64,000 bases of DNA from Escherichia coli (GTDB lineage Bacteria; Pseudomonadota; Gammaproteobacteria; Enterobacterales; Enterobacteriaceae), in the NCBI RefSeq assembly GCF_051903065.1, contig NZ_CP178438.1. The stretch is one strand, 5' to 3'. Below are positions 45,001 to 48,000 of the stretch, piece after piece. The position numbers are program-made. Positions within the stretch are counted from its first letter, which is position 1. Each line of letters opens with the position of its first letter.

Positions 45001-48000
45001 CTTATTTATTTCAATAAATATATCGCCTAAAAACAACGCGGGGCAGGGAATGACTGCCCCATTTTTAATTTTTAAGTAGGGTGCGTGGTTGACTACTCGT
45101 TAGCAAATAATCAAATAGCTAAAGCATTCATCGTGTTGCCCGTATTCATACCCATGTGACTTTGACAACGGTACTCCTTAGAAACTCTCTTCGGACTGTT
45201 GCCGAAATGTTTGCGGAACGCATAAATAAAATAAGATGTACTGGCATAACCACATTGTTCGGCAATTTTATTGACTGAACCTTCTACGCGTATCAAATTT
45301 TTTGCGTGCTGCATTCTGGCATCTAATAGAATCTGTGAGAATGTCGTTTGCTCTTGCTTTAGTTTTTTCTTCAACAGGCTTTCACTGATGTACAGGCAGT
45401 CACAAATATCTTTCAGCTTCCATGGGTGCGCCAGCTTCATGTTGACAATATTTCTCACTTTCCCGGAAACGGATAGCACACCGTTAGTTAATAGTGTAAT
45501 GAAACCTTTGCATGCGGCAAATATAGACAGGCAAGAAAAAAGCAAAAGTTCTGAAAAATTATGATGATTGCGTTCTTCCGAGTTGAGATAAGCAATCATT
45601 TCATTAAGCAATCCAGTCGGTACATTTGAAGCACGTAAAAACTTCGCAGGAACAGGCACCGTCACTGTCTGGATGTTAGTGCATTGTAGATATTTTTTAA
45701 TGGTATTTTCATTAAATCCGATTTCTTTAAAATGCCGCTCATAAGGTTCAAAATGTGTACGAACAGCGTTATCTACCATCAGGATCTCGCCGTCAGAGAA
45801 GGCGTAATCTTTATCTAAAATGTTAGCGTTGAAAGCATGATGAATAAATATAACAGAACAAACGAGCGACATTTTATCTCCTTAAAACAATAAAGTTTTA
45901 TCGATACTTTTTTAACATTTCATATTTATAATTTGCTGTTTATTTTCAGTCTTGCAAACTATTGATAATGAAATGTGTAAGATCTCTTGCAATGCGACCC
46001 ATTTCTGAAATACCCAGCTGATCAATTGCCGAAAAAATGGCTATCAACGTAAGTGTCAGTAATAAGACAACCACAATTACAGACATGATTTCTTTATAGT
46101 TGTCTCTTTGTGTGATTTTATTTTTCACTGTGGTCGCATGCATTTCAAATATGTTTATTTAGCGGATAACGTTAAAAATCGTTAATCAGTATGCTTAATA
46201 TAACAGGCTGGAAAAAAGAGGAAATAGGACTGGTGCTTCAGTACTGAGCGGAGTTTCTTACAGCTGTAGGCAGAAGTTTAAATCTTATAGTATGTAGTTT
46301 AATTTAATCCATGTGAGCAAATTGCGCGATAATAGTCAATGAGGAATTCTTCTGCTGTGCGGATGACAGCAGAAGAAATGAGAAGAGGCATTAATTTGAT
46401 GGTTCTAATTCAACCGGAATACTTTTATAGCCAGGAATGCCACTTAATGGATCGTGGTTATCAAGTGTTAGCATGTGATTCGATTCTGGAAAATAGGTCA
46501 CCAGTGAGCGGTCAGCCATAGGGTAAATGACCACTTTTAATCTATCCATGCGGCGGTGATGCTGCCAACTTACTGATTTAGTGTATGATGGTGTTTTTGA
46601 GGTGCTCCAGTGGCTTCTGTTTCTATCAGCTGTCCCTCCTGTTCAGCTACTGACGGGGTGGTGCGTAACGGCAAAAGCACCGCCGGACATCAGCGCTATC
46701 TCTGCTCTCACTGCCGTAAAACATGGCAACTGCAGTTCACTTACACCGCTTCTCAACCCGGTACGCACCAGAAAATCATTGATATGGCCATGAATGGCGT
46801 TGGATGCCGGGCAACAGCCCGCATTATGGGCGTTGGCCTCAACACGATTTTACGTCACTTAAAAAACTCAGGCCGCAGTCGGTAACCTCGCGCATACAGC
46901 CGGGCAGTGACGTCATCGTCTGCGCGGAAATGGACGAACAGTGGGGCTATGTCGGGGCTAAATCGCGCCAGCGCTGGCTGTTTTACGCGTATGACAGGCT
47001 CCGGAAGACGGTTGTTGCGCACGTATTCGGTGAACGCACTATGGCGACGCTGGGGCGTCTTATGAGCCTGCTGTCACCCTTTGACGTGGTGATATGGATG
47101 ACGGATGGCTGGCCGCTGTATGAATCCCGCCTGAAGGGAAAGCTGCACGTAATCAGCAAGCGATATACGCAGCGAATTGAGCGGCATAACCTGAATCTGA
47201 GGCAGCACCTGGCACGGCTGGGACGGAAGTCGCTGTCGTTCTCAAAATCGGTGGAGCTGCATGACAAAGTCATCGGGCATTATCTGAACATAAAACACTA
47301 TCAATAAGTTGGAGTCATTACCCCATGCGGCGTGAGCTGCGCTTACCGTCTGGCGTAAGCGCAATAAGATTAACTCTTTCGCCGTTTTTTACACGGCAAA
47401 TTTTAGCTTGTTTAGCACTCATAAAGACCACATCTCGTTGACCGAATACCCCTCGATAGCGATCATCCATACCATAAATCGTCGTGTTGTACTGATCGTG
47501 GCTGCGTACTGTCGCCATGACCAGCTTACTGTTAAACGCTGAAGAGGGATCTTCTAACAGCCCTTTGCTGGTAATGAAATTAGCCTTACCTGACGGCGTC
47601 ATCCAGCGCCTTTCAGCAGCTGCATTTATCAGGTGAAAACCACCGGGATGACGGATGCGCTGGTTATAGTCGGCGAACTCTGGCAGCACAGCTTCAATGT
47701 CGTTGCGAATGCGATCATAATCTTCCACCAGATACTCCCAGGCTACCACGCTCTGGGGTAGTGCTGCCTGTGCGATTCCCGCGACCACTGCACACTCTGA
47801 TTTCAGCATTACACCGGCGGGTTTTAACACGCCACGCGAGGCATGAATCATCGACATTGAATCCTCAACGGTTACCGCCTGCGCACCGCTTTTTTGCATG
47901 TCAATCTCGCTACGTCCCAGAACCGGCAGAATATAGCTATGCCGTGCGGTCAGCAGATGAGAGCGGTTAAGCTTAGTGGCTACGTGTACCGCCAGATCTA

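What the first reader, a model, noticed from the sequence alone, without database searches (positions are those of the whole stretch)
46255..46272. EvgA box for safA-ydeO retained downstream of the IS1-disrupted ydeP
TTCTTACAGCTGTAGGCA matches the 18-bp EvgA inverted-repeat consensus with one mismatch. Its position upstream of the 65-aa safA gene fits the known EvgA to SafA to PhoQ and EvgA to YdeO to GadE acid-resistance cascade, so this branch should still respond to EvgS even though ydeP is broken.
Basis: partly seen in the sequence, partly recalled or inferred. Interest (0 to 1): 0.35.

Follow-up and report, generated by a model that had tools for sequence, protein, structure and literature searches.

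The report
Known EvgA operator upstream of safA-ydeO
The 18-base palindrome is the already characterised binding site through which the acid-sensing regulator EvgA switches on the E. coli safA-ydeO operon. It is unchanged here even though an IS1 element has recently broken the neighbouring ydeP gene, so the finding is correct but ordinary.

Summary
Window 46255-46272 reads TTCTTACAGCTGTAGGCA, one mismatch from TTCYTACA-NN-TGTARGAA. At one mismatch or fewer, shuffles of the window give no matches. The window has two matches, this one and one upstream of ydeP.

The site lies 111 nt upstream of the ATG of an intact safA. It is identical at 18 of 18 positions to E. coli K-12 MG1655. In 11 diverse E. 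coli strains it varies only at one outermost base and one base of the central spacer. The same pattern also finds the other known direct EvgA targets in K-12: emrK/evgA, frc and yfdX.

A clean IS1 insertion (768 bp, 9-bp target duplication) truncates YdeP at residue 708 of 759. It ends 282 bp upstream of the box and leaves the whole 247-bp ydeP-safA intergenic region intact.

Published work reports that EvgA binds this promoter, and that isolated safA-promoter reporters respond to EvgS and acid.

Caveats:
- evgAS lies outside the window.
- EvgS acid-responsiveness varies between strains.
- Any read-through from the ydeP promoter is probably lost.

Novelty: already known. The only new element is a strain-specific IS1 insertion. 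Interest is low.

The parts
46255..46272 (-). EvgA box of the safA-ydeO promoter. It reads TGCCTACAGCTGTAAGAA on the safA-sense strand. The promoter-proximal half-site is perfect (TGTAAGAA). The distal half-site has the single mismatch.
   Evidence: One mismatch to the consensus, chance expectation 0.00. Identical to K-12 at 18/18 positions. 16 of 18 positions are invariant in 11 strains; variation is confined to the outermost base and the central spacer.
46197..46205 (-). Predicted extended -10 element of the safA promoter (TGtTATATT). The inferred transcription start is near 46190. The -35 region is poor (ATTTCC, 46225-46220).
   Evidence: Read directly from the sequence. It is invariant in 11 strains. 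The hexamer lies at offset 53-58 after the box, the same offset as the -10-like TAATTT at ydeP. This is an inference, not a mapped start site.
45946..46143 (-). safA, encoding the 65-aa connector that activates PhoQ. The gene is intact.
   Evidence: ORF. 62 of the 64 aligned residues are identical to K-12 SafA. Annotated as safA in the matching E. coli genomes.
45111..45872 (-). ydeO, an AraC-family activator of gadE. It is intact and is the second gene of the operon.
   Evidence: ORF. 250/253 identical to K-12 YdeO.
46347..46377 (-). Perfect 12-bp stem-loop 14 nt after the ydeP stop codon. It is a likely partial terminator or 3'-end stabiliser between ydeP and the safA promoter.
   Evidence: RNA fold of the centroid hairpin -17.5 kcal/mol (minimum free energy of the 71-nt stretch -17.6); z = -5.1 and 0 of 200 shuffles fold as well. 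Invariant in 11 strains. The U tract is weak (TTCCTCATT), so the terminator scan did not call it.
46391..46554 (-). 3' remnant of ydeP, covering roughly the last 51 codons plus the stop, cut off from the rest of the gene.
   Evidence: Collinear with K-12 ydeP. Reconstruction.
46555..47322 (+). IS1 element, 768 bp. insA/insB are on the + strand, opposite to ydeP and safA. It is flanked by the 9-bp target duplication CCATGCGGC at 46546-46554 and 47323-47331.
   Evidence: Terminal inverted repeats, length and duplication verified. insA/insB ORFs. Matches are annotated as IS1 family transposase. The same junction occurs in draft assembly GCA_036912935.1.
47323..49447 (-). 5' part of ydeP. The reading frame runs into IS1 and stops, giving a 709-aa ORF of which 708 residues are YdeP. 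This removes the last ~40% of the C-terminal molybdopterin-dinucleotide-binding domain (Pfam span 642-751).
   Evidence: Removing IS1 and one duplication copy restores a 759-aa YdeP with 2 differences from K-12.
49691..49708 (-). Second EvgA box, upstream of ydeP (sense strand ATCCTACACCTGTAAGAA). It now drives a truncated gene.
   Evidence: One mismatch. Half-sites are invariant in 7 strains, with variation only in the spacer and at position 2. It is centred at -74.5 if the ydeP leader starts 178 nt before the ATG, which is the probe start given in PMC11210196.

Best explanation
[quoted passage not shown] At mildly acidic pH, EvgS phosphorylates EvgA. An EvgA dimer binds the inverted repeat and activates a promoter that has a good extended -10 but a poor -35.

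The site is centred about 73 bp upstream of the inferred start, the same geometry as the ydeP promoter. The resulting transcript encodes SafA, which activates PhoQ/PhoP, and YdeO, which activates gadE and the glutamate-dependent acid-resistance genes.

What the sequence shows:
- the match to the consensus,
- identity with the K-12 site,
- the conservation pattern across strains,
- intact safA and ydeO,
- an IS1 that spares the whole intergenic region.

Taken from the literature on K-12: EvgA binding and EvgS/acid induction of this promoter.

Inferred: the position of the transcription start, and that the promoter still responds in this strain. Because ydeP is inactivated by IS1, the EvgA-dependent acid response here should run only through this operator and through EvgA's direct action on gadE.
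For: - Exact coordinates and one mismatch to the consensus, with chance expectation 0.00 at <=1 mismatch.
- The only other match in 64 kb is upstream of ydeP.
- In K-12 the same pattern picks out the evgA-emrK intergenic region, the frc upstream region and two sites upstream of yfdX. That is 4 matches in 20 kb against 0.24 expected. It also finds the safA and ydeP sites. So the consensus I recalled does mark the known direct EvgA targets.
- The box is identical to K-12, and the 247-bp intergenic region differs from K-12 at only 4 positions, none in the box or the predicted -10.
- In 11 strains spanning 94.5-99.9% identity, 16 of 18 box positions are invariant. The two variable positions are the outermost base and a spacer base. 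The ~46 bp just upstream of the box vary at many more positions (about 12 columns). The ydeP box shows the same pattern.
- safA and ydeO are intact.
- IS1 is a clean insertion ending 282 bp upstream of the box.
- Literature: EvgA binds the safA-ydeO promoter directly (PMC9496106 and PMC8147483, citing Itou 2009). EvgA sites occur at all known directly regulated genes (PMC4283999). safA-promoter gfp and lux reporters are induced by acid via EvgS/EvgA and are repressed by PhoP and YdeO (bioRxiv 10.64898/2026.05.06.723403; PMC5619816).
- From my own knowledge, not re-read here: Masuda & Church 2003 (Mol Microbiol 48:699) showed a gel shift of EvgA on the b1500-ydeO repeat, and showed that mutating it reduced ydeO induction.
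Against: - There is no binding or expression data for this strain.
- evgAS lies about 0.9 Mb away in K-12 and is not in the window.
- Natural EvgS alleles differ in acid responsiveness (PMC5706723).
- The primary papers that define the box (Masuda & Church 2003; Itou 2009) were not available in the library. The consensus and the mutational evidence therefore rest on my memory, on secondary citations and on the cross-check.
- The safA transcription start is inferred, not mapped.
- The promoter scan did not call the safA promoter, because its -35 is too poor.
Confidence: 0.9

Rival explanations
1. The operator is intact, but the branch is altered or uncoupled in this strain. Possible causes:
- IS1 blocks read-through from the EvgA-dependent ydeP promoter into safA-ydeO.
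- IS1 changes local H-NS silencing.
- IS1 supplies an outward hybrid promoter.
- The strain's EvgS allele is absent or acid-blind.
In any of these cases the box would be 'retained' but its output would no longer be K-12-like.
For: - Some authors describe a ydeP-safA-ydeO unit (PMC11052181, PMC8147483).
- H-NS binds the ydeO and ydeP promoter fragments (PMC2984483).
- A promoter-like site points toward safA, with its -35 (TTGGCA, 46568-46563) inside the IS1 end and its -10 (TAGATT, 46544-46539) in the ydeP remnant.
- EvgS acid-responsiveness varies among natural isolates (PMC5706723).
Against: - Isolated safA-promoter reporters respond on their own (bioRxiv 10.64898/2026.05.06.723403; PMC5619816).
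- A strong conserved hairpin directly after ydeP suggests read-through is limited even in the wild type.
- Promoter-like sites in this stretch occur at chance frequency: 3 found against 3.2 expected.
- evgAS is present in almost all E. coli (PMC5706723).
Confidence: 0.15
2. The match is a chance palindrome with no regulatory role.
For: Short A/T-rich palindromes are common in intergenic DNA, and nothing was measured in this strain.
Against: - Zero matches in 100 shuffles at <=1 mismatch.
- The only two matches in the window both precede EvgA-induced genes.
- The site is identical to the K-12 site and shows a dyad-specific conservation pattern.
- The pattern recovers the other EvgA targets.
Confidence: 0.02
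3. The dyad is the target of another LuxR/NarL-type regulator of the acid network, such as RcsB-GadE, rather than EvgA.
For: The half-site TAAGAA resembles part of RcsB-type boxes. The promoter is known to receive other inputs, namely PhoP and YdeO repression (PMC5619816).
Against: - The half-site arrangement TTCYTACA-N2-TGTARGAA is shared specifically with the emrK, frc, yfdX and ydeP promoters, all direct EvgA targets.
- Deleting gadE, gadX or gadW does not change the induction kinetics of the promoter (PMC5619816).
Confidence: 0.03

Closest known systems
EvgA box of the b1500(safA)-ydeO promoter of E. coli K-12 (Masuda & Church 2003; Itou, Eguchi & Utsumi 2009)
   Same: - All 18 bases are identical.
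- The distance to the safA ATG is the same, and the intergenic region is the same length (247 bp) with 4 substitutions.
- The downstream genes are the same and are intact.
   Different: The upstream neighbour ydeP is interrupted by IS1 282 bp from the box. ydeM and most of ydeN, downstream of ydeO, are deleted. No experimental data exist for this strain.
EvgA box of the ydeP promoter (window 49691-49708)
   Same: - Same dyad with one mismatch and a perfect promoter-proximal half-site TGTAAGAA.
- A -10-like hexamer at the same offset (53-58 nt) after the box, giving a site centre near -74.
- The 35 nt after the two boxes are 24/35 identical.
   Different: The ydeP promoter has a long leader (~178 nt), against ~47 nt inferred for safA. 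Its gene is now truncated.
BvgA-activated promoters of Bordetella (EvgA's closest studied homologue)
   Same: Both use a NarL-family dimer binding an upstream inverted repeat to activate a promoter with a poor -35.
   Different: BvgA promoters use several cooperatively bound dimers reaching the -35 region. Here a candidate second site 22 bp downstream scores only 8-9 of 16, which is background level. Multi-dimer binding is therefore not supported.

Membership tests
EvgA-binding site (EvgA box) of the EvgA regulon | 18-bp inverted repeat matching TTCYTACA-N2-TGTARGAA | tested here: met
   17 of 18 pattern positions fit the consensus (one mismatch among the 16 specified bases), with chance expectation 0.00. 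The consensus was cross-checked on K-12 emrK/evgA, frc and yfdX.
EvgA-binding site (EvgA box) of the EvgA regulon | Located upstream of an EvgA-induced operon, in activator position relative to the promoter | tested here: met
   The box lies 111 nt upstream of the safA ATG. It is about 52 nt upstream of an extended -10 (TGtTATATT), giving an inferred centre of -73.5. The ydeP box has the same box-to-hexamer offset, with a centre at -74.5 from the leader start given in PMC11210196. The transcription start itself is inferred.
EvgA-binding site (EvgA box) of the EvgA regulon | Orthologous to the experimentally characterised K-12 site and conserved as a dyad | tested here: met
   18/18 identical to MG1655. 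16/18 positions are invariant in 11 strains, with variation only at the outer base and the spacer.
EvgA-binding site (EvgA box) of the EvgA regulon | Bound by EvgA and required for EvgS-dependent induction | not testable with these tools
   Only literature on K-12 is available: PMC9496106, PMC8147483, PMC5619816 and bioRxiv 10.64898/2026.05.06.723403. The Masuda & Church 2003 gel shift and mutagenesis are recalled from memory.
EvgA-binding site (EvgA box) of the EvgA regulon | Cognate evgAS present and functional in the same genome | not testable with these tools
   evgAS is not in the 64-kb window. It is reported in almost all E. coli, but with variable acid-responsiveness (PMC5706723).
IS1 insertion | 768-bp element with ~23-bp terminal inverted repeats, insA/insB, and a 9-bp target duplication | tested here: met
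   The element at 46555-47322 is 768 bp, with ends GGTGATGCTGCCAACTTACTGAT and GGTAATGACTCCAACTTATTGAT. The duplication is CCATGCGGC. Excision restores a 759-aa YdeP. ORFs are and the annotation.
Intrinsic terminator (hairpin 46347-46377 after ydeP) | Stable stem-loop followed by a U-rich tract | tested here: inconclusive
   The stem is strong (centroid hairpin -17.5 kcal/mol, z = -5.1). The tail TTCCTCATT has only 4 T in 8 bases, so the scan did not call it.

The most novel reading that the evidence does not exclude
The IS1 insertion may have rewired the node rather than merely leaving it alone. With ydeP dead, EvgA-dependent acid resistance depends on this single operator (plus gadE). The IS1 end could add EvgA-independent transcription toward safA-ydeO, through its outward -35 paired with a -10 in the ydeP remnant, or it could relieve H-NS silencing.

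Separately, the ~35-nt block that follows both the safA and ydeP boxes is conserved (24/35 identical, and invariant across strains). It could be a second, undescribed regulatory site shared by the two promoters, for example the target of the YdeO/PhoP negative feedback.
Probability: 0.12. Interest if true: 0.35.

Novelty: already known. Interest (0 to 1): 0.1.

Why it matters
The finding matters little beyond correct annotation. It confirms that the sequence-only reader recognised a real, published operator.

For this strain it suggests a specific phenotype. The YdeP route to acid resistance is lost. In K-12, YdeP is redundant with the YdeO/GadE route at pH 2.5 (PMC4283999) and is needed for survival without added glutamate (PMC11210196). 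The EvgA to SafA/YdeO route should remain. That makes the strain a natural ydeP knockout in which the safA-ydeO operator carries most of the EvgS output.

Tried and rejected
- **Primary papers.** I tried to read the papers that define the box and the promoter: Masuda & Church 2002 and 2003, Ma et al. 2004, Itou et al. 2009 and Eguchi et al. 2007. None is held. A full-text search for the consensus string found nothing. I substituted a sequence cross-check on the other K-12 EvgA targets and secondary citations.
- **Shigella origin.** I suspected the window came from Shigella, because of the IS1 and the gene decay. I rejected this. The ydeM-ydeN deletion junction is 100% identical in two E. coli genomes that carry an intact ydeP. 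The best flanking matches are E. coli at 99.9%.
- **The IS1 junction elsewhere.** I looked for the exact IS1/ydeP junction in 5,426 complete E. coli genomes. Five records cover the query but only as three joined pieces, which I took to be IS1 at other positions in or near ydeP; I did not inspect them. The truncated protein occurs in one draft assembly whose contig breaks inside the IS1.
- **A second EvgA dimer site.** I tested for a BvgA-style second site 21-22 bp downstream of the box. Scores of 8-9 out of 16 are no better than many neighbouring A/T-rich positions, so I rejected it.
- **PhoP boxes.** The best matches in the promoter have 3 mismatches out of 12, which is not convincing, so I did not pursue them.
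- **Promoter scan.** The generic scan did not call the safA promoter. The -10 was read by eye and supported by its shared offset with ydeP.

Full report
**1. The observation.**
Window 46255-46272 on the + strand reads TTCTTACAGCTGTAGGCA. Against the 18-bp EvgA dyad TTCYTACA-NN-TGTARGAA it has one mismatch. I recalled this consensus from Masuda & Church 2003 and Itou et al. 2009, because the papers themselves are not in the library. Dinucleotide-preserving shuffles of the 64-kb window give 0.00 expected matches at one mismatch or fewer, against 2 observed. At two mismatches or fewer the expectation is 0.11. Relaxing to 3 mismatches adds no further site. The second site, TTCTTACAGGTGTAGGAT at 49691-49708, lies upstream of ydeP.

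Because the consensus came from memory, I tested it on the K-12 evgAS neighbourhood. It finds one site in the emrK-evgA intergenic region, a perfect site upstream of frc, and two sites upstream of yfdX. That is 4 matches in 20 kb against 0.24 expected. These are the known direct EvgA targets, so the pattern is valid.

**2. What surrounds it.**
The locus is the E. coli yddA-ydeO-safA-ydeP-ydeQRST region, with all genes on the - strand.
- ydeO (45111-45872) is 250/253 identical to K-12.
- safA (45946-46143, 65 aa) matches K-12 at 62 of the 64 aligned residues.
- The box lies 111 nt upstream of the safA ATG, inside a 247-bp ydeP-safA intergenic region. This region differs from MG1655 at 4 positions, none in the box.

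ydeP is interrupted by a 768-bp IS1 at 46555-47322. The transposase is on the + strand, and the element is flanked by a 9-bp duplication, CCATGCGGC. Removing the element and one duplication copy restores a 759-aa YdeP with two differences from K-12. The interrupted ORF keeps 708 YdeP residues and loses about the last 40% of the C-terminal molybdopterin-dinucleotide-binding domain (Pfam span 642-751). The near end of IS1 is 282 bp upstream of the box.

The same junction occurs in a draft assembly, GCA_036912935.1, whose contig breaks inside the IS1. In 5,426 complete E. coli genomes the junction query was matched in full only as three joined pieces, in 5 records that I did not inspect. Two genomes share the window's ydeM-ydeN deletion junction at 100% identity, and the one I inspected, 23CRST027, has an intact ydeP. 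The IS1 insertion is therefore recent and lineage-specific.

**3. Conservation.**
I aligned the intergenic region from 11 strains spanning 94.5-99.9% identity. In the box, 16 of 18 positions are invariant. The exceptions are the outermost distal base (T or C) and one base of the central spacer. The ~46 bp immediately upstream of the box carry many more variable columns, about 12. The ydeP box behaves the same way in 7 strains: its half-site cores are invariant, and changes occur only in the spacer and at position 2. This is the pattern expected of a dyad operator.

**4. Promoter anatomy (inference).**
On the safA-sense strand the box is followed, 52 nt later, by an extended -10, TGtTATATT (46205-46197). 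The -35 is poor (ATTTCC). This places the start near 46190, the box centre near -73.5, and gives a leader of about 47 nt.

At ydeP, a recent study uses a 5' leader starting 178 nt before the ATG (PMC11210196). That puts +1 at 49625 and the box centre at -74.5. A -10-like TAATTT sits at the same 53-58 nt offset after the box. frc and emrK also have A/T-rich hexamers at about this offset. The shared geometry supports an upstream-activator arrangement, but the safA start site is not mapped here. The generic promoter scan did not call the promoter because of its weak -35.

**5. Function, from the literature.**
- EvgS senses mild acidity and phosphorylates EvgA, which activates safA-ydeO. SafA activates PhoQ, and YdeO activates gadE (PMC5706723).
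- EvgA binds the safA-ydeO promoter directly (PMC9496106 and PMC8147483, citing Itou 2009).
- An EvgA site is found at all genes known to be directly regulated (PMC4283999).
- Isolated safA-promoter reporters, both gfp and lux, are induced by acid via EvgS/EvgA and repressed by PhoP and YdeO (bioRxiv 10.64898/2026.05.06.723403; PMC5619816).
- From my own knowledge, Masuda & Church 2003 showed a gel shift on the b1500-ydeO repeat and reduced ydeO induction when it was mutated.

The prediction that the branch survives the loss of ydeP is well founded.

**6. Caveats and rivals.**
- evgAS is outside the window, and natural EvgS alleles differ in acid response (PMC5706723).
- Some authors describe a ydeP-safA-ydeO unit (PMC11052181). 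Any read-through from the ydeP promoter is probably lost here, since IS1 insertions are polar (established knowledge). However, a perfect 12-bp hairpin 14 nt after the ydeP stop (46347-46377; centroid -17.5 kcal/mol; z = -5.1; invariant in 11 strains) suggests read-through is limited even in the wild type.
- H-NS binds the ydeO and ydeP promoter fragments (PMC2984483), so an insertion 282 bp away could change silencing.
- A promoter-like site with its -35 in the IS1 end points toward safA. Such sites occur at chance frequency in this stretch.
- A chance palindrome, or a site for a different regulator, is very unlikely (PMC5619816).

**7. Comparison and novelty.**
This is the K-12 safA-ydeO EvgA box itself, so it is already known. 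The strain-specific content is the IS1 knockout of ydeP and the ydeM-ydeN deletion. In K-12, YdeP and the YdeO/GadE route are redundant for EvgS-driven resistance at pH 2.5 (PMC4283999). YdeP is also needed for survival without added glutamate (PMC11210196). This strain is therefore predicted to depend on the safA-ydeO operator for most of its EvgS output. That is a testable but modest point. Interest is 0.1.

Noticed in passing
window 44189/44190 (deletion junction); ydeN remnant ORF 44135-44740: Relative to K-12, 2,347 bp are missing, covering all of ydeM and about the 3' two-thirds of ydeN. The identical junction occurs in E. coli 23CRST027 and 23CRST031. 23CRST027, the one inspected, has an intact ydeP. 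The deletion therefore predates the IS1 insertion.
   Followed up: partly
window 46220-46254 and 49656-49690 (the 35 nt after each EvgA box, - strand): The sequences immediately downstream of the safA and ydeP boxes are 24/35 identical (0 of 20,000 shuffles reach this). The block is invariant across 7 strains at ydeP and nearly so across 11 strains at safA. The frc, yfdX and emrK promoters do not share it. It may be a duplicated promoter module or a shared second regulatory site.
   Followed up: partly
window 46539-46568 (- strand): A promoter-like site is created at the IS1 junction. The -35 (TTGGCA) is inside the IS1 inverted repeat and the -10 (TAGATT) is in the ydeP remnant, with an 18-bp spacer, pointing toward safA. 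It is only a 9/12 consensus match, and such matches occur at chance frequency in this region.
   Followed up: no
window 46347-46377 (- strand): A perfect 12-bp stem-loop lies 14 nt after the ydeP stop codon (centroid -17.5 kcal/mol, z = -5.1). It is invariant in 11 strains and has a weak U tract. It is probably a partial terminator separating ydeP from the safA promoter.
   Followed up: partly
window 49691-49708 versus K-12 L001 10731-10748: The ydeP EvgA box in this strain (ATCCTACA...) is one base closer to the consensus than the K-12 box (AGCCTACA...). The other five strains examined share the window's version, so K-12 is the outlier.
   Followed up: yes
window 46152-46168 (+ strand), just upstream of the safA ATG: TGTTTATTTAGCGGATA is a weak PhoP-box-like direct repeat (3 mismatches out of 12) in the inferred safA leader. 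PhoP is reported to repress this promoter, but the match is too weak to call.
   Followed up: no
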